A stretch of DNA of 64,000 nucleotides, taken from NCBI GenBank assembly GCA_918797485.1, contig CAKKNE010000005.1, forward strand, positions 1,116,001-1,180,000. The letters are read 5' to 3'. The stretch's first letter is position 1. Each line of letters starts with the position of its first letter. The notes under the pieces were generated by a model. It was given only the letters and a program-made list of their open reading frames with translations, made no database searches and was not told the DNA's origin. Positions 1 to 54,090 of the stretch are shown one piece after another. Source of the stretch: Pelagomonas calceolata (Eukaryota). Position numbers and translations under genes: made by a program.

Positions 1-250
1 GGCGCAAAGCTTTGGGCTAGTGTCTTACTACGCTAGTTACGCTGTTTTGCGCGCGCGCTTTTTCCCGGGGCCTCCTGAGCTCGCGGGTTTCTACGTCGAC
101 AGCCTTTGCGCGCTTTTTGAGATCGTCTGTTCCTAGCTCTGGGGAATAGGCACAGCTGACAGCGCTGCTGACAATCTGCTGACTGCTGACAGGGACAGGC
201 TGCATAGCAGCGGTCAAAAAACAATCTACCTCTGATCCGCAGTGGTCATT

Positions 251-985
251 ATGGATCCAGAGCCCAACTGGTCTCCTATCTTCCGCGCTGTTATGGACCT
301 TGATGTTCAAGCTCTGCGGCGCGAGCTCGCGTCTGGCGTCGACGTTAATCTGATGGAGGACAAAACCACGCCGCTCTATATGGCTGTGATTTTTGGTAGT
401 TCATACGCTGAGGAAAAGTTACAGGAGCGACTCGAGTGCATCTCAATGCTCTTGGAGGCTGGCGCTTCAATATCTAATATTGGCCGGGGAGCAACTGCAT
501 TACATCATGCTGCGAGCAATGAGTCCCCGGCATTCCATCCCGTCATCAAGCTACTCATGGAATCGGGCGCCGATGTTAATGCAGTTGATTCTTTGGGCGA
601 TTCCGTGTTAGCTGCGGCAGCAGAAAGTGGTACGACCGGCGCTGTCAGGATGCTCATCTCGGCGGGCGCCGTGGGTCTCGACCGAGCCCTGGACCTAGCG
701 ATTACGAATGGCAAAATACGCAATTGCGCTCAGCTCCTGCGCGCCGGCGCCGCACTACCGGCCGTAATAACCGCGCCCGCGCCGCCGCCGTATTCGCAAA
801 GGCGCGGTTTCCCGCAAATGTGCGCTTACATAGGGAACATCCGCGCGGCGGGAAATTACAAAGCCTACGAGAAGGCGCATCGTCAGCGCCTCGTGGCAAT
901 ATTCCTCCCGAAACTGCCTCATCTCCCGGCCGACGTGCTCGGGCGCGTCGTCGAAATTTTATGGGATATTGGGGGTCACGAATAA
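251..985 (+). CDS. Ankyrin-repeat protein
   Basis: Ankyrin motifs TPLYMAV, TALHHAA, GADVNAVDSLGDSVLAAAA; first ATG at 251. Confidence 0.9.
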   Translation: MDPEPNWSPIFRAVMDLDVQALRRELASGVDVNLMEDKTTPLYMAVIFGSSYAEEKLQERLECISMLLEAGASISNIGRGATALHHAASNESPAFHPVIKLLMESGADVNAVDSLGDSVLAAAAESGTTGAVRMLISAGAVGLDRALDLAITNGKIRNCAQLLRAGAALPAVITAPAPPPYSQRRGFPQMCAYIGNIRAAGNYKAYEKAHRQRLVAIFLPKLPHLPADVLGRVVEILWDIGGHE

Positions 986-1022
986 TGTGCACTGTTAATA
1001 GCTATTAAGGTTACACATAGAT

Positions 1023-2978
1023 CTAACACCCGTACGCCGCGACGAGCGCCTCCTTCGCCTCGGACACCTCGCGCATCTTCCGCTCGGCTCTTAACCGATC
1101 GCCCCGAGCTTTGTCCGGGTGCCACAGCCGCGCCAGTTTTTTATGTTGCTTCTTGAGCCACTTGCATTTGGATTCTTTCCGCAAATCCAGGACGTTGGCC
1201 GGCAGGTCTAGAACACGGGCATGATCTCTACGTTTCTCCCACTGGTCCTCGAGCCGCCGGCAGTCCATCAGCCGCCTTCTTAGATCGAAAGCGTCGCCCG
1301 CGTCGTCGGTCCACTGCAGTCGTTCTGCCTCAGCCCTTTCCCCACCGGCCGCCTCGACGGCGGCGCGCCAGTCGCGCACCGCGTCGTCGTAGGCGTCGTC
1401 CCGCTCGAGAGCCGCCGCTCGAGCCGCGTAGGCTTCGACACCCTCGTCCTGTTGGACCGCAGCGTCGCAGGCCGGCTTCGCCAGCTCATGGCGTCTCACG
1501 CGACTAAACGCGTGGCAGCTCCGCAGATAAAGCGTCGCCCGATACGCCTCCAAGCGACTCCCTTCGAACTCCTCGCCCAGCGCGTCCAGGGCGCCGTAGG
1601 CCTCGTCCAACAAGTCGACCGTCTTGAGGGCCATCCCCTTTTTCAGTTGCTTATCAATAGATTCGACCCTCCTCTTGAGTTCCTTGAGCCCGTCGTACTG
1701 CGTCCTTAAAGGTTTGGAATCGGGGTCGTGCCTGAGACCAGCTTGGACAAACCTAGTCGCCTTGTCGAGGCGACCCCTTTCCAGTGCTGCTGCTGCCCCA
1801 ATGGTCAGCGCGAGCGTCTTCGGCTCGCCCGTCACGAAGGGCGTCCGCATCAGTTTCGGATTATGTTTTTCTAACGCTTGTAAGGCAGCTCCTGCGACCT
1901 GTTCGGCGCCGCCCGCGTCGCCTAGCACCAAACGGGCTCGCGCGAGCCAGACGGCCCACTTGAGCGGGCGGCCACTCCTTACGAGACGAGCCAACGCCTC
2001 CGCGGCGCTGCTCCAATCCCCTTTGGCATTGTCGTTGTCTTCGGCGAGGGCTTTACGTAGAGAATCGACGGCCGTGGACGCCGCCGCCGCCGCGTCCAGA
2101 GCTCTTTGAGCCGTGCTCTCGACGGCCTCCTTGTTCTCGGGCCCGGAGGCAGCCGCACAGCGCGCGATGTGCGCCAACGCCTCCTCGGCGTCGCCGCCAC
2201 TATCCAAAGACTGAAGAGCCGCGTCGAACTCGCTCTTCGCATCACCTGTAAACTTGTGCCCGCCCCGGAACAGATCGGCGACCGAACACGAGCGCGACGC
2301 CACGCAGCTCCGCGCGTTGCTCGCGAAGGCGTCCCCGGGCTTCGCCGTGTGCTCTTCACTATCCAACAAGGCCCGTAGACCGGCCTCGGCGGCCTTCCGT
2401 CTTTGTGCAGCGGCGTCGCGCGACGCCTTTTCCCGCGCTAAACGAGCATCATAAATAGCCCGTTCCTGGGCCTCCTTGGCCAGCTGTTCCTGGAGCTGCC
2501 GGTCCTCCTGCATACATGTCGAAACTTCCCTCATGTACTGCTCTTCTACTGATCGTTCAATACCTTTGCGCCGGGCGGCTCTTAAATAGTCGGCCGCGGC
2601 GCTTCTCGGTCGGTCCTCCCTTGCCTCTTCGGCACGTTTGACATGTTTTCCTGCCGTTTTTAGTTTAGTGGCGTTCGATCCCGCGAGCGCGTGTACTCGA
2701 TCGTCGGGCACCGGTGTGTCGGATGACGCCTCTTCGAGCACGTCGGCGATTTTCCGTGCAAAGCCGGCGTCGGGCCTTTTGGCGATATCCCAGACGTAGC
2801 GCAACGCCGCGGCCACGGCGTCCTCATCCAAATGAATCGCGACGTCGACCGTGTCCTTGTCGTTGAATTTGAGCGGCACGCTGATCCACTCGTTCGTTCG
2901 GACGTCGCCGTCCGGGCCGACGTCCGCTATTTCTGCCGCGGCGACGGCGAACGCCAGCGTAGCGAGGAGCCGATGCAT
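1023..2978 (-). CDS. Signal peptide + TPR + C-terminal J-domain co-chaperone (DNAJC3/P58IPK-like)
   Basis: Hydrophobic N-terminus, TPR-like helices, J-domain KLARLWHPDK...MREVSEAKEAL. Confidence 0.85.
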   Translation of the reverse strand: MHRLLATLAFAVAAAEIADVGPDGDVRTNEWISVPLKFNDKDTVDVAIHLDEDAVAAALRYVWDIAKRPDAGFARKIADVLEEASSDTPVPDDRVHALAGSNATKLKTAGKHVKRAEEAREDRPRSAAADYLRAARRKGIERSVEEQYMREVSTCMQEDRQLQEQLAKEAQERAIYDARLAREKASRDAAAQRRKAAEAGLRALLDSEEHTAKPGDAFASNARSCVASRSCSVADLFRGGHKFTGDAKSEFDAALQSLDSGGDAEEALAHIARCAAASGPENKEAVESTAQRALDAAAAASTAVDSLRKALAEDNDNAKGDWSSAAEALARLVRSGRPLKWAVWLARARLVLGDAGGAEQVAGAALQALEKHNPKLMRTPFVTGEPKTLALTIGAAAALERGRLDKATRFVQAGLRHDPDSKPLRTQYDGLKELKRRVESIDKQLKKGMALKTVDLLDEAYGALDALGEEFEGSRLEAYRATLYLRSCHAFSRVRRHELAKPACDAAVQQDEGVEAYAARAAALERDDAYDDAVRDWRAAVEAAGGERAEAERLQWTDDAGDAFDLRRRLMDCRRLEDQWEKRRDHARVLDLPANVLDLRKESKCKWLKKQHKKLARLWHPDKARGDRLRAERKMREVSEAKEALVAAYGC

Positions 2979-3128
2979 GGGCTTGCTGCAGTAAGTCGCA
3001 CGCTTGCAAGGAAGCTATGCCGCAGCGACTGGCGCAGCAACGGGCTGTCGCCAGGCTGCAAATCCAATGCAACTGGGCTGTTTGTGGGCGTCGCAGCGCG
3101 TGTAAAAATGGGGTCAAAAATTAATCAG

Positions 3129-3150
3129 CTAGCGGTCAGTAAGACACTAG
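3129..3150 (+). promoter_or_regulatory. CTAG-GTAAGACA-CTAG upstream motif (representative copy in a divergent gap)
   Basis: CTAGCGGTCAGTAAGACACTAG; one of 15 copies. Confidence 0.7.
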
Positions 3151-3328
3151 CAAGAATTGTGGGGCAGCCTCTCCGCGCGTAGGTAGCCGCATAGCTCGCG
3201 ACGCGCTGGCAACAAGGCCTCCTTGGCTTCCTGAACCCCCGTCGGTGCGAAATCCTGAGCTGTAGCCTCGGAAATTGATGCTGCCACTGTGTACCATAAG
3301 CTGCTGCCCTAAACGCCATCGACGCGCC

Positions 3329-3814
3329 ATGCCCAAAATACTCTACGTCTGCACGAGCAACACCTGCCGAAGTCCAGCCGCCGCGACGATCGCGCGCGCG
3401 CACCTTGAGACAATCGGGCGGACGGATGTCGAGATAACGAGCCGCGGCCTCACCGACCGCTATTCCGCGTGGGGCTCGGGCCCGGACCCGCGCGCCGAGA
3501 AAGCTTTACAAAGGGCCACGGGCCTGTCGAGCGCGGGCCACGCGTCCTCGAAATTAACGGCGACAGAAGTAGACGAGTGCGACGCGCTCTTCTACTTCAT
3601 GCGCGAGCACGTCGACTGGATCGCGGGCTGCGTCGGCGAGGCGCCGGTGCGGCGCGCCCTCGAGAGCGGCCGGTTGTGCATCGTGCACCCGCCGGACGGC
3701 ATTCCCGACCCGTTCTTCGCCGACGACGCGTTCTACGGCGAGGTCATGACGATGCTCGAGACGCACGTCGCGCGGTCGTTGGACGAGGTACTTGATAAGT
3801 TTACAACACGTTAA
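3329..3814 (+). CDS. Low-molecular-weight protein tyrosine phosphatase family
   Basis: P-loop ILYVCTSNTCRSP (CX5R) and IPDPF motif; ATG at 3329. Confidence 0.9.
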   Translation: MPKILYVCTSNTCRSPAAATIARAHLETIGRTDVEITSRGLTDRYSAWGSGPDPRAEKALQRATGLSSAGHASSKLTATEVDECDALFYFMREHVDWIAGCVGEAPVRRALESGRLCIVHPPDGIPDPFFADDAFYGEVMTMLETHVARSLDEVLDKFTTR

Positions 3815-3847
3815 ATAAAGCGTCGGCGGCGTGCGCCACGCGTCAGT

Positions 3848-4753
3848 TCAAGGCGCTGGCGGCGCGGGCTCGCTCGCCGGCGCGGCCGACTCGCCAGCCC
3901 CGAACATCTCCCCGAAGTAGTCGGGGTACTTCTCGACGCAAGCTTTCAGAGCCAGCGTCGGCTCTGCACAGGCCACCGCGAAGTCCGCCTCTTTCTTCTC
4001 TTTGTCCTGTTCGCCATTCTTCGCTTCCACGTCGTCGAGACACGCCTCCCACACTTTAAAGACGGCCGCACACGGCGAGTCCTCCATGAACTGACAGAGG
4101 GGGCATTTTAACGAAGGCTCCACGAGACAAGTCTCGTCCCTCCAAAAGTCCGCGCGGCAGACCGTGCCACTTAACGGCGCTTCATTGGTAGGTGGCCACG
4201 GGTCGCCCGAGGACCCCTCCACGGCTTTCTTCGGTTCCGCATGATTGAATGCCGCCTCACCGATCTTCAGCACCGCCGTCGTTGAACCACTGGCCTTCAC
4301 CTCCGTCCCGTCGCACAGACAAGCCCCTCTCAGGGCACCGTCGCTGTCGGCGCCGACGACTCGAACCGTCGCCCTTTCGCCGTAGAGCGAGCCGTACATC
4401 TCCGGTCGTTTTTCTAGCCCTTCATCTAGCACAAACAAAGCCGTCGTGCTGTCCTTGTCGGGCCATTTCTCCGCGAGCCGTTTCCGCGACGCGTCGTCCA
4501 AGAAGACGCCGACCCGCGGCGCGGTGTCCGGCGTCGGTTTCGGTTTTTCTGGTGGCGGCGTCGCTGTCGTCTGTGGTGGCGTCGCCGTCGTCTGGCGCCG
4601 CTGGAGTTGCGCCGCTGGAGCCGCCACGGAGTTGCGCCGCTGCAGCGAGGATGTCTTGCGCTGGCGCGGCGCCTCGGTGCTCTGCTCGGCTGCTGCGTAC
4701 GGTATAGTAGCAGCGAGCGCTGCGCCGCCGCGCGCGGCGAGGGTTCGCAGCAT
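3848..4753 (-). CDS. GCK-domain (twin CX9C-like) protein, probably mitochondrial
   Basis: CPLCQFMEDSPCAAVFKVWEAC...CAEPTLALKACVEKYPDYF; presequence-like N-terminus. Confidence 0.7.
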   Translation of the reverse strand: MLRTLAARGGAALAATIPYAAAEQSTEAPRQRKTSSLQRRNSVAAPAAQLQRRQTTATPPQTTATPPPEKPKPTPDTAPRVGVFLDDASRKRLAEKWPDKDSTTALFVLDEGLEKRPEMYGSLYGERATVRVVGADSDGALRGACLCDGTEVKASGSTTAVLKIGEAAFNHAEPKKAVEGSSGDPWPPTNEAPLSGTVCRADFWRDETCLVEPSLKCPLCQFMEDSPCAAVFKVWEACLDDVEAKNGEQDKEKKEADFAVACAEPTLALKACVEKYPDYFGEMFGAGESAAPASEPAPPAP

Positions 4754-5164
4754 GGTCTATTGCACTCGCTGTGCTGCTCGGTGGTGAACAGCCGCAGTTG
4801 CGCTGCGATGCGCTGCACAGCGATCACAGCGATCAAAAGCAATGCTTTCGCGTCCCAAAACAAGGCAGCGTCCACAGCTACGGGCTTGCGCCGCGAATGA
4901 GTGCTTCGCTAGTATCTTACAGGACTCTAGCTGAAAAAATATAACTTGGCTTTGCCGCAGCAACAGGCGCCTGCGCTCGCGCCCTGAGGGCCCGTGAAAG
5001 CCTGACTGTGCTGCCAGCGACCACTGCTAAGCACAGCAGCCAGCCCGACGTCGCCGACGCGGCCGAGCCACTACAGGTCGCCAGGCGCTGCATTGCCGCG
5101 CGGCAGGTCGAGACGCTGTACGCGCGCACGCCGTCGACGCAGCGCAGCACCCAGCGGCTAAAAC

Positions 5165-6940: not shown

Positions 6941-7601
6941 AGAAATCTTTGTGTTTGCTTCTGTTGCTTCTAGCCTGTTGCTCTAGCCTGTTGCAGTGTT
7001 GCTTTCCGGGGGCGTCACGGTGAGAAGCTGCGAGTGGACCCGCGACCGCGCGTGTCTATCTAGATGTAGTTTTTTCGTGTCGCGTCGACTGGCGTAGTGC
7101 CAAACGGCGTCTGTTCTGCCCGGCCTGCATCGGCTAGAGCCATCGGCACGATGACTCCAGTGGCCCGCGCGGCCGCGGAAGGCCGCGGACTAGCAGGCGG
7201 GTACGCGCCCGCGCAACGCCCACCGCCCTACCGAGCCCTGGCGCACGCCTTGAGCTACGCCTCGGGAGCGTTGGCGCGATTCGCCTCGGCACCGTCCGCT
7301 CCTAAAATAACTACGAGGCGTCGCAAATACTACCTGTAAGCCCGTTCTAAAACGAGCAGGCGAAGGCCCGGAGGATCACTCGGCAGCCCAGCATCGGCGC
7401 TACAGCTTCGGTAGCTTCCCTGCTGCCCGCCGTCGCCGTGCAAGCAGCTTTTCGGCTGCACACCAAAAACTGCCAAAATCCGAGGGCGCGACGCGGCCCG
7501 AGGCTTCGAAAAGCCGTCGACAGGACTGCTATAAGTCTCTGAACTTCGCTGCACGCCGTCGCCGACGCGCGGACGCGATCCAAGGAAAAGCAGAGACGGC
7601 G

Positions 7602-9059: not shown

Positions 9060-9093
9060 GGGATTTCTTGACTCAAATTTACTCGTCGTTCGT

Positions 9094-11325: not shown

Positions 11326-11520
11326 GGAGGATGTGCCTGATGGGTCACCTCGGCGCACAGGCTCCGGGCGACTCCAGCGTGCGCGCAGCCGCTCGCCGCT
11401 AAGAGATGATGTCTGCTGTGAATCCTACGAGCGCTACCTCACACTTGTCTCTGCGCTGTGAGTACTAGATCAATGCCAAGAGCAGGCGCGAGCGCGCTAG
11501 CGTCTGTAAGACACTAGGAT

Positions 11521-12627: not shown

Positions 12628-13102
12628 CGATGGAGCTATAAATTGTCTCTATTAATGAGAGCTCAAACGCAGCGATTAGCGCTAGCCTCGATGGCAAAAG
12701 GCTGCTGCAAAGGCTGCACTGTGCACAGAGCCGAACGTCGCGTCCTTGCTAAAGAAATGGTGCAGAGCTGAGAGAAACGGAGCACTGTAGGCCCTGCAAG
12801 CACCCAACTTGTAATTTTGCACAGCTACACACCACTTGCTTTTTGCGCTTGCATGCTTGCATCAGCTAGCGGCATAGTAAGGTACTAGCCCCAAAAAGCT
12901 CGTCGACGCTGTTGCCCTGCAGCTCGGCACACAGCGCTGTTATCGGCCCGGTCGGACTGTCTGTTACACCATCGTGACCCCGCGGTAGGGCTCGGAAACT
13001 TCGGCGCGAGTGCCGCACAGCCAGTGTGGCCCACAGCAACCCCTCCCCAGTTTCAGCGCGGACGACGCCGCAGCGCAAGTATCCAACAACCGCGCGCCAC
13101 CG

Positions 13103-14404: not shown

Positions 14405-14576
14405 ATCAAATCGGTTTTCCTGCTTTTTTGTTGCGGCGGCAGCGTGTTGGGCGCCAAAGAGCCATACCTTACTGCTAGTGTCGTCTTACAGGACGGCTAG
14501 CTCTGGAAGCCCAGTCATCGCATAAAAACGCGGTGCACACCGTTGCCATATCGAATTCATCGTCGCAGAAGCTACA

Positions 14577-15911: not shown

Positions 15912-15946
15912 GGGCCTAACCCATGTTGTATACAGTCACTTACACA

Positions 15947-17115
15947 CTAGAAGAGCGACGCGAAGAAGCCGCCGCTCGCGCCGAAGGCCGAACTCTGCGA
16001 CGCGGCGCAGGAGAACTCGTGCACCGTCGTCTGCGTATACGTCTCGCCCGGCCGCAGCACAATGTTGGGGAAATGAGGTCTGTGGATCGAATCTGGGAAG
16101 TGCTGGCATTCCAGACAGAGGCCGGCTCTTTTGCTGTAGGGAATGCCCACACTTGGCGAGCCCTTGGCGCCGTCGCTGCGGCGCAACGTGCCGTCCTGTG
16201 TGACATCGACCGCGTCGATGGCGTCGGGGCCACGGCAAACACTCAAGGCGCCTTCGACGAGACACCGATGCGAGCCAGGAAATTGCCCGTGTAGAACTGC
16301 ACGCCCGGCTCCGTCGTCCAGACCTTCATGAGCCGCCCGCTCTTTTCCGACCAGAGCGTCGCGACCGGCCGCAGGCCCTCCTCGGAGGCGGCACCGGAGA
16401 GCACAAAATTATGATCGGCGCCGTTGCCCTGATCACATTCGAGTATTCCATCCCCCACAACCCGGGGGGCCGAGCAGTAGTCCATGGGCGTGCCCTTGAC
16501 CGCTCTCACTTCTCCGGTCGGGATGGAATCATCATCCGTAGGTGTATAAAATTGAGCCTCGAGGCGGATGACGTGCTTGTCGACGGACGACGCCCCGCCG
16601 TCCTCGAGGTTCCAATACGCATGATTCGTGAGGTTCAAGGGCGTCGCCTTGTCCGTCGTGGCGGCATAGTCGATCTTCAGAGTGTTTTCCGTCGGTAGGG
16701 AGTAGGTCACGCGCACGTCGAGCGTGCCGGGGTAGCCCTCGTCGCCGTCCGGTGACCGTAGAGCCAGCGTCAGCTGCGTCGCCGTCGACTCGACGACGGC
16801 CCACCACTTCCGGTTGAAACCCTCCTTGCCGCCGTGGAGGTGGTGGTGGCCGTTGTTGGCATGTAATTCATAGGTCTTCCCATCGAGGGAAAATTCCGCA
16901 TTGGCCGTGCGGTTCGCCACGCGACCCGCGACACTGCCGAAGAACGGATTCTTTCCTAAATACGGCTCCTCCCGATCGAAGCCGAGGACGCACTCGCCCC
17001 GATTCCCGTGCTTGTCCGGCACTCTTACTGACGTGATCGTCGCGCCGAGCGGTAATATCGTCACTTTGATGCCGTCGCCGCTCGGGTGCTCGAGGACGTG
17101 GGCGGTGTCGCCCAT
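15947..17115 (-). CDS. GALM: Aldose 1-epimerase (galactose mutarotase), 2 exons (17115-16276, 16195-15947)
   Basis: [47 protein letters not shown]. Confidence 0.93.
16196..16275 (-). other. 80-nt GC-AG intron
   Basis: GCTCGC...CACACAG; this junction restores the conserved YTGNFLDG. Confidence 0.75.
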
Positions 17116-17828: not shown

Positions 17829-18207
17829 CCTACCGATCCGCGGCCGGCGGGCCCTCCCTCTCACTTTAAAATCGGTGCGGTTGCGACGAACGCAGCGTCG
17901 TAGCGGTGGCCGCAAGTGCTGCGAACGACGCGTTCGTTGGCTTATCGCTGCCCCGCAGGCTGCCCTCGTCGCGTTTGCGCCGCTTTTGATCCAGGGTGGC
18001 GCGGCGCCAAGACGAGGAAACGTGCGGGGCGGGCGGCGCGGCCCCCCGGCGGCGCACGGATCCGCGCCTGCGGTGAAGGATAAGGGCCGCGCGCCCTTTG
18101 CGACAGCTAGCGGCTGTAACGCACTAGCCTTTGAGCAGCTGCTGCTCAAGGCTTTTTGCAGGCATTTTGCATCGTAGGGCTGCCCCCGAGCGATTTGACC
18201 AGACAAG

Positions 18208-19329: not shown

Positions 19330-19347
19330 ATACAAGCACAACTATTA

Positions 19348-20502: not shown

Positions 20503-20883
20503 TTTTTGACGCGTTCGCGGCGGCGGCGGGCGCGTATTGCTGCACGTCTGGCAACCTCCGGCGTGCTGCGGGCTGCAGACAAATATGTGGCCCCAGCTCG
20601 GGCAGTGTGGGTGCTGCCTGCAGCGGTTTGACGCAACCTCCAGAGGCGCGCCGCAGTAGCAGCGGTCTAGGGCTTGCTCCTCACAGCGTGGGCACGCCGG
20701 TAACGCACGTACAAGTGAAAACACAAAGCAGCCAAAAAAAACGTGCTAGCGTATTGTAAGGCACTAGCAAGCGCAAGCACACTTTGCAGCGGCCGTGTTG
20801 CGCACTATTGATAACTTACGTACAAAGCACTCTCTGGTAAGATCTCAGACAGTACCCGCACCGACCTGAGGAGTCCCGAAGCG

Positions 20884-24010: not shown

Positions 24011-24031
24011 CTAGCGGCAGTAAGACACTAG
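24011..24031 (+). promoter_or_regulatory. CTAG-GTAAGACA-CTAG upstream motif (representative copy in a divergent gap)
   Basis: CTAGCGGCAGTAAGACACTAG. Confidence 0.7.
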
Positions 24032-24553: not shown

Positions 24554-25169
24554 CATAGTCTACTCCTCGCGGAGGCGCCGCATCGGCATGCTTCGGCGTG
24601 ACTAAGGCTCGGGGCGACGGCGTGCGAGGGCCGGGGGCCGGGGGCGGGGTGGGCACTACGCTCAATTTATTATGTCTCCATGCGCCTCCCCGACCGGTCC
24701 CCGAGCAGTACAGCGCCAGGAAGACTCATCCTGGCGCGGTCCCAAAAAAAGTAAGCGGCGCTGTCGGGCCCGGGCGCTGGCATTCTGTTTGCCTGTGTTG
24801 CGCCTCGCCTCGGGCGTGTAGAAGGTAAACCACCACTGCAGAAGGGCCAAGATGGCAGCCCAATCGAGTGCCAGCGGCTCCGGCAGCGATTCCGCCGATG
24901 CGCCAACAAAAAAAAAGAAAAAGCGCAAACGCAAAAAAAAATAAAGCGCTAGCGTCTGTTGAGACACTAGCAAGCAAAAGCCCAGGTTTGGCTGGTGGCC
25001 TAGTTGTGCCTTCCGCACAAGTTCGCCAACGAGCTCGACACGAGCGAGCCACGGACGCCGAGCACGCTGCGCAAGTGTCTGCTGCCCCAAAAAGCAGCAG
25101 GAAGTCCACTGAAGGGCAGCACCAAGCCCACAAAGGCCACCGCCTCCGCGAGGCACGCGACGGCCGAAG

Positions 25170-32765: not shown

Positions 32766-32776
32766 TTCGCACCCGC

Positions 32777-38560: not shown

Positions 38561-39050
38561 GGCGCCGCGGTGACCTTCCCGGGCTTTTTGATTTAAGGCT
38601 GTGTTCTCGTCACAGGCGCGCGAACGCGTCGTCGCGTCGCGGCGCCCAGCTCAATTGCAAGTAGCTGTACTGCTGCGCGAGCTGTGTGGCTGCGCGGCGC
38701 GCTATTGGCTGTGTGCAGGTCAATTAACTCTTGCCGCCGCGGGAGACCAGGCTCTGCATTTTGAGTGTGAGAGCCAAGTCGAGAAGCTGAAAGACTCGTC
38801 GCCGCAGCCTTCCGATCCCTCGCGTACAGCTACAAGTCGCCGCGAAGCGCACGGGCCTAGCTGCGAGACACTCTAGAAGCAGCAGCAAAGCAACCTCGGC
38901 GTCGTCGCCGCGACGCGCAGCGGTGCTGTAGCGGGGTGCTGACCCGCGATTTCCATAGCCCCAGCAGTGCTGCGTGACCAGCGCAGCGATTTGCAAGAAC
39001 GCACAACCAGTGCTGCAGCACAGGCAGAGTGCTGCAGGCAGCACTGCAGC

Positions 39051-40613: not shown

Positions 40614-40614
40614 C

Positions 40615-47266: not shown

Positions 47267-47293
47267 TATGCATAAGTACAAATACACAACAAT

Positions 47294-49063
47294 TTACCCG
47301 AGCGCCCGCTTCACGCGGAGCCGCTCGCCCGCCTTGAGCCCGACCTCGCGGAGCAGGTCCATCAAATCGCCCGCGCGGTGCGCTTCCAGGATCGCTTCCA
47401 AATCAATCTCCTCGTCCTCGAAGGCGTCTACCTTATCACCGAGCCGCGCCGCCTCCAGCAAATCCCGGAGCGACGCCGGCTCCTCCGAGGGCGGCGGCTC
47501 CGGCGCTTTCGACGGCGACGCCGGCGGCACGAAGCGCTGGATGGGCATAGCGCGCCTTTCAGGAGCCGCCGTCGCGGACCGCGCCTGCACGACGTCGGGC
47601 GGCGGCGCCACATCCACTGATGCGGCGGGCACGGCGTATTTGGTCTCGAGGCGCTGCATGAGCTCCGACGCGCGAGACGACCGGCGCTCCGGCGACTCTG
47701 GAGAGGGCGCTTTGTACGCATCAGGCGCGCGCCAGGCCGGCAAGGCGTCATCCGAAACCAACTCCGCGGCGGCCGCCGCGAGTCTCCGGGGATCCGCGCC
47801 GGGCTTGGCCGCGGGGTGACCCCGCTGATGTAACCTCTCAAGAGACGCGATCAGATCAGGACCTTTCTCCGACGTGCTCAGCTCCGCCTTCAGCGCCTCG
47901 AGACTCCGCTCCAACTCATGGGACCGCGCAAACACGTCGACGACCGCGTGCTCGCGCATGTCCGCGATGGCCCGCGCTTCCTCCGCCCTTCTCGCGAAGT
48001 CATCGAGTTTCGCCTCGACGGCCTTGAGGTCCTCGAGAGCTTTCCTTTCATCCGCCGCGGCACCCGATACCGTTTTAGCGTGCTCCTGCCTCCGAAATTC
48101 CGCCATGACCGGGTCCTCGGTCTCCTCGAACTGTCGAGCTTCCTCGGCACCACCATCAATCCTATCGTGCAAGACTCGCGTCTCGAAGTCGAAGAGCGCC
48201 TGTTCCTTCAACTCACAGACCTGGAAGTCTTGCAACGACGACGCCCAGGCCGCCGCCGCTGCGCGAGAGCGGAACACGGCCACCTTGTGGGCGTTCGTCT
48301 CGACCAGGGAGCCTCGTTCATCAACAACGACCCACCGCCACTTCCTCACTTCTTGCTGGGCCAGCTCTGTGGACGGTAGGTCGCCGTCCAACGCTCTCAA
48401 CACGTTCTCTCGTCCTAAGTCAAGAGCGACGTGCCGCGGCGAGCGCTGCTGGTCGTCTTCCGCGTCCGGGTCCGCGCCATGTCGCACCAATATAGAAGCG
48501 ACGCGCGCGTTGCCGTCGATACAGGCGTAGTGCAAAGCTGTTCTTCCTGCTTTATCTCTCAGATGGACGTCGGAACCCATCCGCAGCAACTCCTCGGCAC
48601 TCCGCGCCGCGCCGGACTCCGCAGATAGGGAGAGCGCGTGGCGCCCGTCCCGGTCGACGGCGTCGATGGCAAAATCACGCCCGCCCCACTTCTGGAGCGC
48701 GAAGCAGCAGTTCGCTCTATCGGAAGCCGCCGCCGCGTGGAGCGCCGTGCGGCCGGACGCGTCCTCCGCCGTCACGGCCGCGCCTCCTCGCAATAACGTC
48801 GCGACGGCGCCGTCCGAGCCCCGGATGCAGGCGAGGTGCAGCGCCGCGAGGCCGTCGGCCGGGCGCCTGGCGTCGAGATCTACTTTCTCTGAACAAGTAG
48901 CCCGCAGGACCTCGAGCTGTCCTTTTTCGGCGGCCGTCCAGAGCCGCTCCTGCGGCGTTGTCTGTTCTTCTTCTTGAGGACGCGTGGAGCGCTGGCTCCG
49001 GCTCGCTTCGGCGACGGCGGCGTCGAGCGCTTCGTGTTTTTTGGTCGTGAGGAGGTGGCTCAT
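47294..49063 (-). CDS. Ankyrin repeats + coiled coil + C-terminal SAM domain
   Basis: GRTALHAAA, GRTALHYAC; LLEAARL...FEDEEIDL...LREVGLKAGERLRV. Confidence 0.88.
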   Translation of the reverse strand: MSHLLTTKKHEALDAAVAEASRSQRSTRPQEEEQTTPQERLWTAAEKGQLEVLRATCSEKVDLDARRPADGLAALHLACIRGSDGAVATLLRGGAAVTAEDASGRTALHAAAASDRANCCFALQKWGGRDFAIDAVDRDGRHALSLSAESGAARSAEELLRMGSDVHLRDKAGRTALHYACIDGNARVASILVRHGADPDAEDDQQRSPRHVALDLGRENVLRALDGDLPSTELAQQEVRKWRWVVVDERGSLVETNAHKVAVFRSRAAAAAWASSLQDFQVCELKEQALFDFETRVLHDRIDGGAEEARQFEETEDPVMAEFRRQEHAKTVSGAAADERKALEDLKAVEAKLDDFARRAEEARAIADMREHAVVDVFARSHELERSLEALKAELSTSEKGPDLIASLERLHQRGHPAAKPGADPRRLAAAAAELVSDDALPAWRAPDAYKAPSPESPERRSSRASELMQRLETKYAVPAASVDVAPPPDVVQARSATAAPERRAMPIQRFVPPASPSKAPEPPPSEEPASLRDLLEAARLGDKVDAFEDEEIDLEAILEAHRAGDLMDLLREVGLKAGERLRVKRALG

Positions 49064-49956
49064 GCCAGAGGGGCTCTCACAGGTTGTTGGAGCTGTGGCG
49101 CGGGCTGCGAGTTGTTACGCGTGGCCGCAGCGATGGATGGCGCTCAGATCCTCGCCAAATTGATTGTCGTCGCCACTGCGTATTACCGCGTCGATTTTTT
49201 TTTTTTTGCGCGCTGTGTGCTAGCGGTATGTAAGACACTAGGATCTGTACAGATCGATCTTGGTGCACACGAATTGTTCTTCACGCCGAAAGACGAGTGC
49301 GAGGACGATTCAAACGGGTTTGGATCAAGCACTGGAAACAGCAGAGACTGTGCTAAAGCACCATCTCGCGCTGAGGCTCGCCTTGCTATCCTAATTCTAT
49401 CTGGGGCCGACGACAAAGGCCGAACGTTGCTACCTTACCCGACGAGGGCTTACTCGAGTCTCAATTGTAGACCCCAACTGAGAGCGCTCTCGAAGAAGGC
49501 GCCATGTCCCTGGACTCTGGAACCCTGAAGGCCGATGTCGGCCTGCGCAAGAAGACGCCGGCCGACAAGGTGCGAGACGCCGGCGCGAATTTAAACGCGC
49601 GCTTCGCGAAGCTTCGCGGCGCGACGCCGGAGAGCCGCGCGCGCGCCGCGGGCGCGCGCTAGGCGGCGCGGCGCGCGACCCGGTCCTAGGCCGACCCACG
49701 ACCCACGACCACGAGCCCCTATCTAACCACTCCGACTCGGGCCCGCCGCCGATGAATCGGCGACGCGCGGTGTCTCCCCCCCAGGGGCTCCGCCCACTAG
49801 TCCTAGCACCGTAACATCGATGGGGACGCGAAGTGGAGTCGCAGTTGTAAGTTAGGGAGGGCGGCGCGGGGCGGGGCCCCGCCGCGGCGCCGGGGCGGCG
49901 GGTCTGGGTCGGTACAGCTCCAGACGTGCGGCGGCGAATTGGGGCCGGCGGGGCGC

Positions 49957-50427
49957 CTAGCGGCCGGTCATCTCGCAGGCCGCCGGGCCGCCGACGCCGT
50001 CCAAGTCTTTGTGCTCGTCGAGCCACTTCTGGGTGAAGGGCGGCGTGCAGCAGCCGGCGTTCGGCATGACCTGCAGGCCCGGGCAGCAGGGCAGGACGCA
50101 GACGGGCGCGGGCACGTACTCGTCGTCGAACGGCAACGCCGCCGCGCCCTTGAGGCAGAGGCAGCTCTGGCGGCCCTTGCAGCACACGGCCGGCGCCTTG
50201 AGCCCGCACGAGCAGCAACCGCAGCCGCAGTGGCAGATCTCGCCCTTGTCCTTGTCCGCCGCGATCGGGCCCGGGCCGAGGACGGCCTCGCCCGCCGCGC
50301 AGCAGTACTTGCCGAAGCAGCACAGCTCCTCGCCTTCCGAGACGCAGCAGACCTTGATGTCGGTGGGGTCGATGGCGATGTATGTGCACCCTAAGGCCTG
50401 TACGGTCATGTAGTCCTTGGGCGCCAT
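49957..50427 (-). CDS. Small cysteine-rich protein of unknown function
   Basis: ATG at 50427; dense CC motifs; GC3-rich codons. Confidence 0.78.
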   Translation of the reverse strand: MAPKDYMTVQALGCTYIAIDPTDIKVCCVSEGEELCCFGKYCCAAGEAVLGPGPIAADKDKGEICHCGCGCCSCGLKAPAVCCKGRQSCLCLKGAAALPFDDEYVPAPVCVLPCCPGLQVMPNAGCCTPPFTQKWLDEHKDLDGVGGPAACEMTGR

Positions 50428-50711
50428 GGTGCTCTGATCGGGTGACGGCGGCCTGCGGGGGACGGCGCGTCGCGGGGCAGCCCCCTTTTTTGGCTCGGCG
50501 CGGCGGCCGGCAGCCCCCTCTTTTGGCTCGGCGCGGCGCCCGCCGGCCGCGCCGGACGCGCCGTGGCTCGGGGGGCTTGCGGGGCGCGGGCGCGTCGTTG
50601 GCGGACGCGGGCGGTGGCTTGTTGTGGCTTTTTTTTTGCCGGAACAGTGGCAGTGCGAAAAAGGACGCACTGATCGACGACGACGGGTTTTTAGCCCCCC
50701 ACCCCGCACGA

Positions 50712-50974
50712 AACTTAAGCACGGCCAGTGGCGGAGGTCGTTTAGCGACGGACTACAACAAGTTCACTCGGCGTTGCCGGGTGGTGGCGCAATCGGCGCG
50801 GCGGTCGGCCGCGTCATATTTCGGACCGACCGGATTACCTGGGCAAGCAGGCGGCGCACAGGCCGGTCAACCAGGGCTAGCTCATAGTCCTCTCTTTACT
50901 CATACAGGTAGCGGTGACACGACTCGGCCTGGGCATGTGGCAGACGATTACAATCCTCAAGTGCCCCCCCAGGC
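50712..50974 (+). repeat. Left arm of a 263-bp inverted repeat
   Basis: Reverse complement of 52761-53023; 3 mismatches found by eye. Confidence 0.95.
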
Positions 50975-51738
50975 AGTGTAAGAATCAAATTTCTAGACGG
51001 ATAGTCCTATGAGTCTAGTGGACTCTTGGGAGGCTAGTAGGCCGGTAGTAGGGGGGTAGATTAATCTAGGGTACGGGTTTTATGGTTCAGCAAAAGTGGG
51101 TTAAAATGGGATAAGACCGGGGAAATATCGGCGTATCGGGCTGCCTTTGGCCCCAGGCACGTCGCTGGGGGCTGCCTGGGGCAGGGGACACCCGGGGAGC
51201 GCGTAAAAGGCTGTCGCGCGGGTTACCGTAGTTATGGCGCGGCGGCGGCCGCCGGCGCCACGGCGCCCCTCGCGATGACCCTCGCGCTCGTCGGCGCCAT
51301 GGTCCTGGCGTCACTGGCGTGAGCCCCCATCGACAACTTCCCCTTTGCACACATCTCACTCCCATCGCCCACCCATTTATGGGTGTATGGCATTTGCGCA
51401 TATCCCTCTCCCATCGCCCCGTCGGACAACGGTGTAAATTACTGAGTTATCCGGGTTCGCCGCCGAGGCCCTCGGTGCACAACTGAATCACTAGGCCCTC
51501 CTCGACGCGCGGGCCGGCGAGACCGCGCGCTGGCACGTGTTGTGCCACTGCGTCCGGTTATTTCCGAGGTTCATAACCTGAATAGCGTTAAATAACCGGT
51601 CGGCGTCGGGATCAAGAATCGGCTGAATCCCGCGTGGGCTAGCGCTGTAAGACACTAGCAAAAGCAAGCACCATATTTTTAGTTCACATCTTTGGGATCG
51701 GCACCCCAAAAGGCTGCCCGCTTACTCTTGAAGCATCT

Positions 51739-52404
51739 ATGCAGGGCCAAGTCGTTCTCCAGGGGGAGATCGTGGCCGCGGAGGCGCCGCCCCAGCCATA
51801 CGCCGCGGAGGCGCCGCCCCAGCAGCCATACGCCGCGGAGGCGCCGCCCCAGCAATACGCCACGGAGGCGCTGCCCCAGCAGCCATACGCCACGGCCCAA
51901 CCAGTATATGTGCAGCCACAGCCTGTATACTCTCAGCCCGCACCAGTCGTCATGCCACCGGCCGCACCGCAGACCGTTCAGGTCCAGATTCCGGCCGGCA
52001 TGATGCCCGGTTCAGTTTTCGACGTACAAGCGAACGGCCACAGGATACGGGTGACGGTTCCCGCGGGTGGCAGCACAAGATACCATGCGATTGCTGGGCC
52101 TGCTGTGTCGCCGGGCCCACGTACTTCACCATCAAATACTGGCCGCCCGGCGGGCAGCCCGGCGGAGGGGGGCGTTGGTAGCCCATCATGCCCGGCATCA
52201 TCATGCCCGGCTGCATCATCATGCCCGGCTGCATCATCACCGGCTGAGAGAACTGCGGTGCGGCAGGCGGCATCACGACTGGTGATACTGGTTGGGCCTG
52301 GAGCGGCGCCTCACCCTCCTCCTCCCACCAGTTTTGCTTGCCAGTGTTCGGGTCAAACTTCGGAATGGGCTGCCCCGTGCTGGCATCGAACCGCGGCCCA
52401 GTAG
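51739..52404 (+). CDS. Pro/Gln-rich protein; recognisable only to ~52070, probably chimeric or truncated
   Basis: AAEAPPQ(Q)PY repeats, VQVQIPAGMMPG..F.VQ...IRVTVP; downstream part is antisense of the opposing gene. Confidence 0.55.
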   Translation: MQGQVVLQGEIVAAEAPPQPYAAEAPPQQPYAAEAPPQQYATEALPQQPYATAQPVYVQPQPVYSQPAPVVMPPAAPQTVQVQIPAGMMPGSVFDVQANGHRIRVTVPAGGSTRYHAIAGPAVSPGPRTSPSNTGRPAGSPAEGGVGSPSCPASSCPAASSCPAASSPAERTAVRQAASRLVILVGPGAAPHPPPPTSFACQCSGQTSEWAAPCWHRTAAQ

Positions 52405-52417
52405 GCTTGTCTGACAT
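51950..52417 (-). CDS. Pro/Met-rich protein; recognisable only down to ~52065, probably chimeric or truncated
   Basis: PRFDASTGQPIPKFDPNTGKQNW, QPGMMM repeats, PPGCPPGGQY...YVGP, ILCC. Confidence 0.55.
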   Translation of the reverse strand: MSDKPTGPRFDASTGQPIPKFDPNTGKQNWWEEEGEAPLQAQPVSPVVMPPAAPQFSQPVMMQPGMMMQPGMMMPGMMGYQRPPPPGCPPGGQYLMVKYVGPATQQAQQSHGILCCHPREPSPVSCGRSLVRRKLNRASCRPESGPERSAVRPVA

Positions 52418-52760
52418 CGTGCTGTGTGCCTCTCCCATATCATGATATCAGATGATATCATAATGCTAGCTTGCTGTAAGACACTAGGAACAATTCCACA
52501 CCCTAACGGGGGGCGTCCCAGAAAGAGGGGGGGGCGTGCGAGTCCATGCGACTAAGCCCTTGTCGAATACCTAGTCAGGTATTCGACAAACTGAAATTCG
52601 GGATTTGTTAATTTCGGATTTTAGCGATATTCGCTACCGAACCGCGCACTCTACTTGCAAGCACCTGCTGATCGGGCTCCCTAATCGTCGCGGTGCTTCT
52701 TCTTGGTGGCCGACTCGCGCGGCGTCGCGGGCTGGCCGGCCGGCTTTGGGAGCAGGGTCC

Positions 52761-53023
52761 GCCTGGGGGGGCACTTGAAGATTGTAATCGTCTGCCACAT
52801 GCCCAGGCCGAGTCGCGTCACCGCTACCTGTATGAGTAAAGAGAGGACTATGAGCTAGCCCTGGTTGACCGGCCTGTGCGCCGCCTGCTTGCCCAGGTAA
52901 TCCGGTCGGTCCGAAATATGACGCGGCCGACCGCCGCGCCGATTGCGCCACCACCCGGCAACGCCGAGTGAACTTGTTGTAGTCCGTCGCCAAACGACCT
53001 CCGCCACTGGCCGTGCTTAAGTT
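52761..53023 (-). repeat. Right arm of the 263-bp inverted repeat
   Basis: Reverse complement of 50712-50974. Confidence 0.95.
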
Positions 53024-54068
53024 AGGAACGGTCTTGGACACCAGCTTGATCAAACGTCTGCAAAAAAACGCAGTAGAAAACCCGTTTTTTTCGTGCGATG
53101 GCCGCGCAAACAAAAAGTATTACACGAAGCGTACCCAGACGGCCTGCCCCCAGCACCATGCTGGGTCTGCTTCGAAGACCGTCCTCTACAATGGGCCCGC
53201 GGGCCGTCCCATGCCTACAACACAAAACGCTCGCCGGCGGCGCGTCAGCCTGGCGCACGCGTCGCCGCCGAGTGTGCACCGAGGCCGTTCCCGCGCGAGG
53301 ACCGCGATCAGCATGCAGTGGCCACGCCATCAATGAGTCGTCGCCGCCAGGAGCGCAAAGTAATCACATGACGCGGACGTCTAACTGCCGGCCCAGCGAC
53401 CGGTCCGCGATCTTCGAAGTGGAGCCGCACTAGTTCCCCCTGACAGCACGTTTCGAGGTCTCCAGTTTTTCTTCCCACAGGCTTGCTGGCGTATGAAACT
53501 CGTAAGACTCGTATCGTCGTAGCGAGCGCCGCCAGCAGTTTCAGATCATGATATGCGCATCAGCGGCGTGTGGTAAGAGGTCGACGAAGCGCGTGAAGTG
53601 GTCTGCAGAGTCCGGGAGCTTGATCTTCGAGGGGCGGGGTGGTCTTGCATCGTCGTCGGGAGGCCGACGTAAGCTGGAGACGGTTGCGGCGTCACTCGTG
53701 CGGTTCAGCGCGGCGCGACGACGCACGTGTCGGAGCACTGTTCGCCCTTCCGCACCCGTTTGGCGCTGTGAGCTGGGACGCGTGGTCCAGCGTCGCGGCG
53801 TGCGGCTGTGTCCTCTCCGGCTCTGTCGACAGTGACGAGCGAGCGTCCGTGGCAGACTTTTCGAGCCGCGCGTGCGACGCCGCAGCACAGCCCTGTTCAC
53901 GAGCAGCCTGGCTGCCGACCGCTTGGCAGCGCAGCGCCAGAGAGACGTCGGACGGCAGCCGCTCGGCAATGAGAGCCAACTTTATCACTGCTTCGGCGGT
54001 GCAGCGCTGCAGAAATGCTACCTTTGCGCGGAGGGGCCGAGCTGGGCACGGCTCAAGCCAAGCGGTAG

Positions 54069-54090
54069 CTAGCGGTCTGTAAGACACTAG
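54069..54090 (+). promoter_or_regulatory. CTAG-GTAAGACA-CTAG upstream motif (representative copy)
   Basis: CTAGCGGTCTGTAAGACACTAG, about 210 bp upstream of ATG 54298. Confidence 0.7.

What the first reader, a model, noticed from the sequence alone, without database searches (positions are those of the whole stretch)
17..54090. Candidate widespread promoter element: CTAG-N12-18(..GTAAGACA)-CTAG upstream of most genes
Seen: 15 copies at 17-36(rc), 3129-3150, 4909-4930(rc), 11497-11517, 12866-12888, 14475-14500(rc), 18107-18127, 20746-20767, 24011-24031, 24949-24970, 38857-38876, 49220-49241, 51639-51658, 52466-52487 and 54069-54090. Weaker copies lie near 17480-17504 and 58778-58798. Consensus is gCTAGcg(n)tGTAAGACACTAGc. 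Every copy is intergenic and about 50-320 bp upstream of a start codon. Seven divergent gaps each hold one copy, and I saw none in coding sequence or in the short convergent gaps. Orientation is independent of the gene. Inference: an orientation-independent core or bidirectional promoter element, or a general regulatory factor site setting the nucleosome-free region. I know of no description of it.
Basis: partly seen in the sequence, partly recalled or inferred. Interest (0 to 1): 0.85.

Follow-up and report, generated by a model that had tools for sequence, protein, structure and literature searches.

The report
Two-way promoter motif of a picoalga
A 27-29 bp two-part DNA motif (CTAGCG, 2-5 free bases, GTAAGACACTAG) sits in the short gaps where this gene-dense alga's transcripts begin, in either orientation, and is likely the docking site of a still unknown protein that would start transcription on both sides.

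Summary
The window has 14 clear copies of aG-CTAGCG-N2-5-GTAAGACACTAG-CAAgc. The 12-mer alone gives 10 hits against 0.08 expected. All 14 lie in the 20% of the window outside ORFs. Nothing is conserved beyond about 28 bp, so it is not part of a longer repeat.

A metagenome scan found 125 more distinct sites with unrelated flanks. There, Pfam-supported neighbouring genes point away from the motif 40 times and toward it 13 times, equally on both sides.

RNA data place transcript 5' ends 5-45 bp from the motif edges on both strands. At 54069-54090 the divergent transcripts start about 40 bp apart, with the motif between them. Orientation does not matter: paralogous promoters carry it either way round.

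The best reading is the binding site of an abundant sequence-specific factor that defines the promoter and positions two-way initiation. Binding and function are inferred, not shown.

There are exceptions. One copy (52466) lies at a transcript's 3' end with no start nearby. Some promoters lack the motif. One strong start cluster is about 115 bp from the nearest copy.

No description was found in the held literature. I rate it a new variant of a known kind of promoter element.

The parts
17..36 (-). Motif copy, 0 mismatches, spacer 2. Lies 205 bp upstream of the ankyrin ORF (242-985, +).
3129..3150 (+). Motif copy, 0 mismatches, in the divergent gap between the DnaJ gene (-) and the LMW phosphatase gene (+). 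A minus-strand transcript contig reaches 3109. Plus-strand 5' ends pile up at 3167.
   Evidence: (X8 piece 1014-3109; X22 'end' 3167, 6 molecules beside depth 8). X4 piece 1020-4879 runs across this copy.
4909..4930 (-). Motif copy, 2 mismatches, in the divergent gap between the GCK gene (-) and the DUF747 gene (+). A minus-strand contig reaches 4879 and a plus-strand contig starts at 4961.
   Evidence: (X4 piece ..-4879; X8 piece 4961-6951)
11497..11517 (+). Motif copy, 0 mismatches, in a tandem gap. It is 138 bp upstream of ORF 9094-11358 (-) and 3 bp past the stop of ORF 11521-12627 (-).
   Evidence: X4 piece 9064-12761 runs across it.
12866..12888 (+). Motif copy, 2 mismatches, in the divergent gap between a methyltransferase-like gene (-) and the Kelch gene (+). 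A plus-strand contig starts at 12902 and a minus-strand contig reaches 12761.
14475..14500 (-). Variant copy with a 2-3 nt insertion in the right half, in the tandem gap upstream of the GST gene (+). A contig starts at 14566 and 5' ends pile up at 14654.
18107..18127 (+). Motif copy, 2 mismatches, 80 bp upstream of the TPR/MYND gene (18208, +). The strong minus-strand start cluster at 17983-17995 is 112-124 bp away.
20746..20767 (+). Motif copy, 1 mismatch, in the 159-bp divergent gap between an ankyrin gene (-) and the CRAL_TRIO gene (+).
   Evidence: no RNA laid here
24011..24031 (+). Motif copy, 0 mismatches, 217 bp upstream of the hydrolase-fold ORF 21820-23793 (-), in a 1.4-kb divergent gap.
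   Evidence: no RNA laid here
24949..24970 (+). Motif copy, 2 mismatches, 199 bp upstream of the 2531-aa ORF (25170, +). It is the second copy in the same divergent gap.
   Evidence: no RNA laid here
38857..38876 (+). Weak relative of the motif in the divergent gap 38561-38966.
   Evidence: It is not found by the two-part scan.
49220..49241 (+). Motif copy, 0 mismatches, 156 bp upstream of the ankyrin ORF 47294-49063 (-). Minus-strand contigs reach 49206 and 49207, 13-14 bp from the motif edge.
   Evidence: (X8 and X9 pieces)
51639..51658 (+). Motif copy, 0 mismatches, 80 bp upstream of ORF 51739-52404 (+). Plus-strand 5' ends pile up at 51701, and depth rises from 2.9 to 79 across that point.
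   Evidence: ('end' 51701, 14 molecules beside depth 43)
52466..52487 (+). Motif copy, 1 mismatch, and the exception. It lies at the 3' end of the 51739-52404 transcript. No start is seen on either side.
   Evidence: pieces end at 52487, 52489 and 52491 in three assemblies; plus-strand depth falls from 43.9 to 0.13
54069..54090 (+). Motif copy, 0 mismatches, lying exactly between two divergent transcripts. Minus-strand contigs reach 54064, 54057 and 54029, with a 5' pile at 54044. Plus-strand contigs start at 54101, 54105 and 54107.
   Evidence: Of the 12 reads over position 54076, 11 come from other loci.

Best explanation
The motif is a discrete 27-29 bp two-part DNA element, aG-CTAGCG-(2-5 nt)-GTAAGACACTAG-CAAgc, that lies in the transcript-start gaps of most genes in this window. 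It is likely the binding site of an abundant sequence-specific protein that would define the promoter and position RNA polymerase II initiation on both sides of it.

Shown directly:
- The motif, its excess over chance and its sharp boundaries.
- Its restriction to non-coding gaps that contain gene starts.
- Its indifference to orientation.
- Transcript 5' ends within about 5-45 bp of its edges on both strands.

Inferred:
- That a protein binds it. A candidate is a two-domain or dimeric factor, since two CTAGC words lie 17-18 bp apart and the spacer tolerates 1-3 nt length changes.
- That binding opens chromatin or recruits the initiation machinery.
- That one site serves both divergent genes.
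For: 1. Excess over chance: 10 hits against 0.08 expected for the 12-mer. Fourteen two-part copies lie in 64 kb.
2. Discrete element: information content drops to background beyond -2 and +5 in 125 independent sites. Flanks are unrelated.
3. Position in the window: all 14 copies lie outside ORFs that cover 80% of the window. By ORF models, 7 of 10 divergent, 4 of 9 tandem and 0 of 10 convergent gaps hold a copy.
4. Independent sites: 125 distinct metagenome sites. Of 39 with ORFs on both sides, 17 are divergent, 20 tandem and 2 convergent.
5. Neighbouring genes at those sites: Pfam-supported neighbours point away 40 times and toward 13 times (binomial p = 0.0003). The split is 20/6 on the left and 20/7 on the right. 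The median distance to the ATG is about 170 bp. The neighbours belong to many unrelated families.
6. Transcript 5' ends close to the motif edges:
   - 3109 and 3167 around copy 3129-3150.
   - 4879 and 4961 around copy 4909-4930.
   - 12902 after copy 12866-12888.
   - 49206/49207 before copy 49220.
   - 51701 after copy 51658.
   - 54064 and 54101 around copy 54069-54090.
7. Orientation flips among five paralogous TPR/MYND promoters, with the motif 65-161 bp from the ATG.
8. Two pairs of related loci keep the motif while the surrounding non-coding DNA has diverged. In each pair the only difference inside the motif is a 1-nt spacer indel.
Against: - No binding, accessibility or reporter data exist.
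- Start mapping rests on 9 copies. Much of it uses transcript-contig ends, which only bound the true 5' end.
- Copy 52466-52487 shows no transcript start. It lies inside the 3' end of a polyadenylated transcript.
- The strong start cluster at 17983-17995 is 112-124 bp from the nearest copy, and the start at 14654 is 154 bp away.
- Some promoters have no canonical copy: 3 of 10 divergent gaps, and the Myb gene with 5' ends at 7318.
- RNA contigs cross several copies (3129, 11497, 52466). Contigs from other loci contain the whole motif.
- The pairs were both retrieved because they carry the motif. They show that conservation occurs, not how often.
- Extra copies were sparse in the metagenome flanks: 5 near-matches plus a few second exact copies in 218 kb. 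The held flanks are short, however.
Confidence: 0.62

Rival explanations
1. The motif is a DNA-level boundary or other chromosomal signal that merely shares the promoter gap. It could be an insulator between neighbouring transcription units, a stop or 3'-end signal for the upstream gene, a recombination hotspot or a replication-related site. In this reading it does not itself drive initiation.
For: - Copy 52466-52487 coincides with a transcript 3' end and has no start beside it.
- Copy 11497 lies 3 bp past a stop codon.
- In metagenome loci, the stop codon of 8 of the 13 genes that point toward the motif lies 12-126 bp from it.
Against: - The polyadenylated transcript at 52466 contains the whole motif, so polymerase is not blocked in front of it.
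- Contigs read through copies 3129 and 11497.
- Convergent gaps, where a pure terminator would be useful, almost never have it: 0 of 10 and 2 of 39.
- The spacing to 5' ends is tight on both sides.
- One copy per about 4.6 kb is too dense for replication origins. This last point rests on general knowledge.
Confidence: 0.15
2. The copies are relics or footprints of a tiny mobile element that inserts at CTAG in open promoter DNA. They would have no function of their own.
For: - The element is bounded by two CTAG words, like a target-site duplication.
- A motif of about 36 specified bits present at very many unrelated sites is hard to build by point mutation alone. This is an inference.
- Spacer indels look like decay.
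Against: - No similarity extends beyond about 28 bp in 125 + 14 sites, which is too short for any known autonomous or non-autonomous element.
- The inner 12-mer is asymmetric, so there are no terminal inverted repeats apart from CTAG itself.
- No 'empty site' AGCTAGCAAGC occurs in the window: 0 hits against 1.4 expected.
- Unconstrained relics should have decayed like their flanks. In two related locus pairs the motif is intact while the flanks have diverged (with ascertainment bias).
- Relics would not explain starts at matching distances on both sides.
Confidence: 0.08
3. The motif acts as RNA, or as a single-strand hairpin. Options are a 5'-leader structure, a splice donor (GTAAG) of a leader intron, or a processing signal.
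For: - The element can fold, with GCUAG pairing with CUAGC and, in some copies, GUCU with AGAC. The z-score reaches -4.0 on the reverse strand.
- It contains GTAAG.
- Some RNA contigs contain it.
Against: - At six copies the transcripts start outside the motif, on both sides of it or on one. At 54069-54090, 11 of the 12 reads over the motif come from other loci.
- It occurs in both orientations relative to the gene.
- No splice joint starts at any copy. The real introns are at 14798-14869 and 16195-16274.
- The inner stem is not conserved. The commonest spacer is GCCT (27 of 125), not the pairing GTCT (4 of 125). Three of 8 copies fold no better than shuffles.
- There is no Rfam match in the window.
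Confidence: 0.04

Closest known systems
General regulatory factor sites of budding yeast (Reb1, Abf1, Rap1) - recalled, not tested against a motif library
   Same: Both are short sequence-specific sites found at many functionally unrelated promoters. Both lie in the gap upstream of the start, act in either orientation and are often shared by divergent genes. The yeast sites can also mark the end of the upstream unit.
   Different: The sequence is unrelated. This element is much longer (27-29 bp, two halves, variable spacer). It lies closer to the starts, about 20-50 bp from its centre. One polyadenylated transcript runs through a copy rather than stopping in front of it.
DRE/DREF and BEAF-32 sites of Drosophila, and the 18-20 bp ZNF143 (Staf) site of vertebrate promoters - recalled
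   Same: These are promoter-proximal, orientation-free motifs that are enriched at housekeeping and head-to-head gene pairs. The ZNF143 site is similarly long and information-rich.
   Different: The sequence and lineage differ. Here the motif occupies most of the space between two starts only about 40-60 bp apart. It is present at 7 of 10 divergent gaps in the window, not at a minority class of promoters.
Classical core promoter elements (TATA box, initiator; the HomolD box of fission yeast) - recalled
   Same: The centre-to-start distance of about 20-50 bp is in the range of TATA-to-start spacing. The conserved CA just right of the motif resembles an initiator dinucleotide.
   Different: TATA and the initiator are directional and serve one start. 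This element is used in both orientations and on both sides. There is no AT-rich core and no further conserved position at a fixed distance.
Miniature inverted-repeat transposable elements and introner-like elements of picoalgae
   Same: Both occur in many dispersed copies in a compact algal genome, and this element is bounded by a short repeated word (CTAG).
   Different: Only about 28 bp is conserved. There are no inverted termini beyond CTAG, no flanking duplication outside the element and no empty sites. The element lies between transcript starts, not in introns.

Membership tests
Promoter-proximal factor-binding element (general regulatory factor type) | Over-represented, discrete motif with unrelated flanks | tested here: met
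Promoter-proximal factor-binding element (general regulatory factor type) | Lies upstream of gene starts and is depleted at 3' ends and in coding sequence | tested here: met
   14 of 14 copies outside ORFs; 0 of 10 convergent gaps hold a copy; 2 of 39 convergent; 40 neighbours point away, 13 toward. One exception at 52466.
Promoter-proximal factor-binding element (general regulatory factor type) | Acts in either orientation | tested here: met
   20/6 on the left against 20/7 on the right; 3 paralogous promoters carry it in gene orientation and 2 inverted.
Promoter-proximal factor-binding element (general regulatory factor type) | Bound by a specific protein, with a nucleosome-free region at the site | not testable with these tools
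Core promoter element (TATA/initiator class) | Fixed, narrow distance to the transcription start | tested here: inconclusive
   For 10 of the 5' ends recorded, the distance from the motif edge is 5-45 bp. Others lie 66, 105, 112-124 and 154 bp away. Most are contig ends, not capped 5' ends.
Core promoter element (TATA/initiator class) | Directional, one element serving one start | tested here: not met
   Starts are seen on both sides of single copies (3129, 4909, 54069). Both orientations are used.
Dispersed repeat / miniature transposon | Similarity extends over tens to hundreds of bp, with terminal inverted repeats and a target-site duplication | tested here: not met
   conservation ends at about 28 bp; no empty site.
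Spliceosomal intron 5' site | Reads join across a GT..AG interval that starts at the motif's GTAAG | tested here: not met
   the only clean GT..AG-type joints are 14797>14870 and 16194>16275. None is at a motif copy.
Known structured RNA family (Rfam) | Match at the gathering score | tested here: not met
   0 matches in the window.

The most novel reading that the evidence does not exclude
One 27-29 bp two-part element is the near-universal, orientation-free nucleator of RNA polymerase II initiation in this alga and its close relatives. It is present in thousands of copies. Each copy fires both ways from starts about 20-50 bp either side of its centre, replacing the TATA/initiator logic. It is read by a dedicated two-domain or dimeric factor that is still unknown. 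Its high information content would imply spread by a copy-and-paste process rather than by point mutation.
Probability: 0.3. Interest if true: 0.85.

Novelty: new variant of a known kind. Interest (0 to 1): 0.68.

Why it matters
Promoter architecture is essentially uncharted in pelagophyte-like picoalgae, a group that matters in open-ocean production.

If the reading holds, a single recognisable 28-bp word marking most transcript-start gaps would have four uses:
- It would give annotators a direct predictor of start sites and of gene boundaries in very compact genomes and in metagenome contigs.
- It would offer a minimal two-way promoter part for genetic tools in these algae.
- It would point to one dominant, still unidentified DNA-binding factor that could be fished out with the motif as bait.
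- It would provide a compact natural system for studying how one short site serves two divergent starts only about 40-60 bp apart.

Tried and rejected
- Longer dispersed repeat: rejected. Flanks are unrelated in 14 + 125 sites.
- Leader-intron splice donor: rejected. No joints occur at any copy.
- RNA or DNA hairpin as the functional form: folding is better than shuffles in 5 of 8 copies. However, the inner stem is not conserved and the motif lies outside most transcripts.
- Insertion with a CTAG duplication: no empty sites were found.
- Known RNA family: none.
- Viral carriers: 0 exact matches in viral contigs.
- Whole-genome scan: not possible, because no genome is held for the window.
- Counting copies along the longer metagenome records: not possible, because those records are not held.
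- Earlier notes of this scan: nothing was found by place, sequence or words.
- ORFs spanning metagenome copies: 17 of 125 copies lie inside an ATG-started ORF of at least 120 aa. Stop-to-stop frames spanning copies are common. None shows a convincing coding signature with the motif well inside it. GC-rich DNA gives long spurious frames, so this remains unresolved rather than disproved.
- Literature:
  - The literal 12-mer, its reverse complement and 11-12-nt sub-strings occur in 9 papers. Judged from the listing only, these concern padlock or rolling-circle probes, prenatal testing and yeast diphthamide. None concerns algae.
  - Searches on pelagophyte/Pelagomonas/Aureococcus combined with promoter, motif, upstream, start site or bidirectional gave nothing relevant.
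  - The Pelagomonas genome paper PMC9481584 has 0 occurrences of 'motif', 'upstream', 'intergenic' and 'UTR' (listing; passages).
  - PMC4410273 mentions 'promoter' only for a T7 primer (passage).
  - Supplements were not opened.
They are not used as evidence.

Full report
**What is in the sequence**

The window is GC-rich (about 62%) and packed with long, mostly intron-free ORFs of ordinary eukaryotic families: ankyrin, DnaJ, Myb, Kelch, GST, TPR/MYND, cohesin loader and TIG. ORF models cover 80% of it.

- GTAAGACACTAG with at most one mismatch occurs 10 times against 0.08 expected, and 0 of 100 shuffles reach 10.
- CTAG-N8-22-CTAG occurs 24 times against 5.8 expected.
- A two-part scan (CTAGCG, spacer, GTAAGACACTAG) finds 13 copies with at most two mismatches. 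It also finds 14475-14500, which has a small insertion in the right half.
The stretches at 17480, 58778 and 44935 are marginal.
- The six remaining CTAG pairs match the chance expectation.
- An independent repeat finder recovers the same element as families of 25-39 nt.

**Extent of the element**

The 25 bases either side of the window copies are unrelated.

These give 125 distinct sites, again with unrelated flanks.

Position-by-position information content in these 125 sites is at background everywhere except:
- A and G at -2 and -1.
- C, A, A, g, c at +1 to +5.

The element is therefore aG-CTAGCG-N(2-5)-GTAAGACACTAG-CAAgc, about 27-29 bp. The spacer is 4 nt in 76 sites, 3 nt in 35, 5 nt in 8 and 2 nt in 6. 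GCCT is the commonest spacer, in 27 of 125 metagenome sites and in none of the 14 window copies. No second conserved signal lies at a fixed distance. The same pattern has no exact match in 2.9 million viral contigs.

**Where it lies**

In the window:
- All 14 copies lie in the 20% of the window outside ORF models (P about 1e-10).
- By ORF models, 7 of 10 divergent gaps, 4 of 9 tandem gaps and 0 of 10 convergent gaps hold a copy. Some of the 'tandem' gaps are probably breaks within one gene.

In the metagenome loci:
- Of 39 sites with an ORF of at least 120 aa on both sides, 17 are divergent, 20 tandem and 2 convergent.
- I then restricted the count to neighbours with a Pfam match at E of 1e-5 or better. 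That left 49 of the 113 ORFs scanned, giving 53 motif-gene adjacencies. Forty genes point away from the motif and 13 toward it (p = 0.0003).
- The split is 20/6 on the CTAGCG side and 20/7 on the GTAAGACACTAG side.
- The median distance to the ATG is about 170 bp.
- The neighbours are functionally unrelated: thioredoxin, transporters, kinases, a cyclin, a Ras GTPase, nitrite/sulfite reductase, flavodoxin, threonine synthase and others. This is a general signal, not a pathway-specific one.

**Relation to transcripts**

Stranded poly(A) RNA reads and three independent transcript assemblies of the same organism were laid on 1-20000 and on 48800-54600.

How the tables are read:
- Over known genes the first mate is antisense to the RNA.
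- The depth step at 51701 (2.9 to its left, 79 to its right) shows that the table's 'end' of a molecule is the RNA 5' end.

What each copy shows:
- 54069-54090: minus-strand contigs reach 54064, 54057 and 54029, with a 5' pile at 54044. Plus-strand contigs begin at 54101, 54105 and 54107. Two divergent transcripts therefore start about 40 bp apart with the 22-bp core between them. Of the 12 reads over position 54076, 11 come from other loci.
- 3129-3150: minus-strand contig to 3109; plus-strand 5' pile at 3167.
- 4909-4930: contig ends at 4879 (minus) and 4961 (plus).
- 12866-12888: plus-strand contig from 12902.
- 49220-49241: minus-strand contigs to 49206 and 49207.
- 51639-51658: plus-strand 5' pile at 51701.

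These 5' ends lie 5-45 bp from the motif edges, or roughly 20-50 bp from its centre, on both strands. Contig ends only bound the true start.

**Results that do not fit neatly**

- Copy 52466-52487 has no start beside it. It sits at the 3' end of the polyadenylated 51739-52404 transcript. Three assemblies end at 52487-52491, and depth falls from 44 to 0.13.
- The strongest start cluster seen (17983/17989/17995, for a short abundant minus-strand RNA) is 112-124 bp from the nearest copy.
- The starts at 14566 and 14654 are 66 and 154 bp from copy 14475-14500.
- The Myb gene (5' ends at 7318) and 3 of 10 divergent gaps have no canonical copy.
- RNA contigs cross copies 3129 and 11497. Contigs from other loci contain the whole motif. 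The element can therefore be transcribed and does not block polymerase.

**Orientation**

- The two-sided symmetry is one line of evidence.
- Five members of the multi-copy TPR/MYND family carry the motif 65-161 bp upstream of the ATG. These are the window gene and four metagenome loci. Three carry it in gene orientation and two inverted.
- In tandem contexts, the metagenome loci give 13 against 7. The four tandem copies in the window all go the other way. Overall there is no preference.

**Conservation**

Two pairs of related metagenome loci (about 88-95% identical in their conserved parts) keep the motif at the matching place, while the neighbouring non-coding DNA is poorly alignable. In each pair the only change inside the motif is a 1-nt spacer indel. 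Both members of each pair were retrieved because they carry the motif. This shows that conservation occurs, not how often.

**Alternatives**

- Leader-intron donor: excluded, because no joints occur at copies. The real introns are 72-80 nt.
- Hairpin: the outer GCTAG/CTAGC words, and in some copies GTCT/AGAC, can pair, with z-scores down to -4. However, the commonest spacer breaks the inner stem, both orientations occur, and the motif lies outside most transcripts.
- Transposon footprint: only 28 bp is conserved and no empty sites are found. An origin by some copy mechanism cannot be excluded. It is attractive, because about 36 specified bits at very many sites is hard to reach by point mutation alone.
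- Pure boundary or terminator role: argued against by read-through and by the near absence from convergent gaps.

**Mechanism proposed**

An abundant sequence-specific protein binds the element, keeps the gap open, and positions initiation about 20-50 bp to either side, so one site serves both neighbours. The protein could be two-domain or dimeric, because two CTAGC words lie 17-18 bp apart and the spacer tolerates length changes.

Shown: the anatomy, placement, orientation independence and proximity to 5' ends. Inferred: binding, chromatin opening and recruitment of the initiation machinery.

**Comparison with known systems (from memory, not from a motif database)**

It works most like these three:
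- Yeast general regulatory factor sites.
- The DRE/BEAF-32 sites of flies.
- The long ZNF143 site of vertebrate promoters.

It differs from them in four ways:
- Its sequence is unrelated.
- It is two-part, with a variable spacer.
- It lies very close to two starts.
- It is used at most start gaps in the window.

It is not directional like TATA or the initiator.

**Literature**

No description was found in the held library:
- Literal strings.
- Topic searches.
- The Pelagomonas genome paper PMC9481584 has no 'motif', 'upstream', 'intergenic' or 'UTR'.
- Supplements and papers outside the library were not seen.

That paper gives 63% GC and one gene per about 2 kb for Pelagomonas (passages). This is compatible with the window, but the taxon was not verified here.

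**Verdict**

This is a real, sharply bounded, promoter-gap element. It is most likely a two-way promoter-defining factor site. I rate it a new variant of a known kind.

- Confidence in the main reading: 0.62.
- Interest: 0.68.

Noticed in passing
window 64-109: Hundreds of RNA reads match only this 32-45 nt segment, with unrelated sequence on both sides (loose ends at 64/76 and 104/109). A joint 'goes back 32' from 108 to 77. This suggests a tandem 32-nt unit in a very abundant RNA encoded elsewhere.
   Followed up: no
window 49741-49781: A segment of about 40 nt is shared with very abundant RNA(s) from other loci (457 and 393 loose-end reads). One such RNA carries a full motif copy 10-13 nt upstream of the segment.
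   Followed up: no
window 17520-17983 (-): A short, abundant polyadenylated minus-strand RNA. It has 5' piles at 17983, 17989 and 17995 and a 3' pile at 17520. Depth is about 244 against 37 for the neighbouring aldose epimerase gene. ORF 17544-18284 on that strand has no Pfam match.
   Followed up: no
window 18208-19329 (+); loci L001, L005, L034, L056, L076, L079, L089: The TPR/MYND-finger gene belongs to a multi-copy family. Many variant reads lie over it, and paralogues 34-63% identical in protein occur on seven metagenome loci, one of them holding two in tandem.
   Followed up: partly
window 52466-52491: A motif copy coincides with the 3' end of the 51739-52404 transcript in three assemblies. 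This may be chance in a compact genome, or a second role of the element at gene ends.
   Followed up: partly
window 50452-50629: The RNA sample differs from the window here. About 176 nt are replaced by 11-13 nt (TTGTTGTGGCT...), which looks like a strain-level indel.
   Followed up: no
window 9057-9094: The Myb gene's RNA 3' ends pile up at 9060, directly after its stop codon. The convergent gene's contigs begin at 9064-9072. The two 3' ends therefore nearly abut within a 34-bp gap.
   Followed up: no
window, all motif copies: Eleven of the 14 canonical copies have the CTAGCG half on the left of the + strand, whatever the gene direction (two-sided p about 0.06). This may be chance.
   Followed up: no
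window 26840-27363: Tandem 141-nt repeats, 96-97% identical, lie inside the 2531-aa ORF 25170-32765.
   Followed up: no
window 3116-3128, 20733-20745, 24936-24948, 49207-49219: A- or T-rich runs lie directly next to the CTAGCG side of several copies. The metagenome sites show only a mild A excess at -8 to -11.
   Followed up: partly
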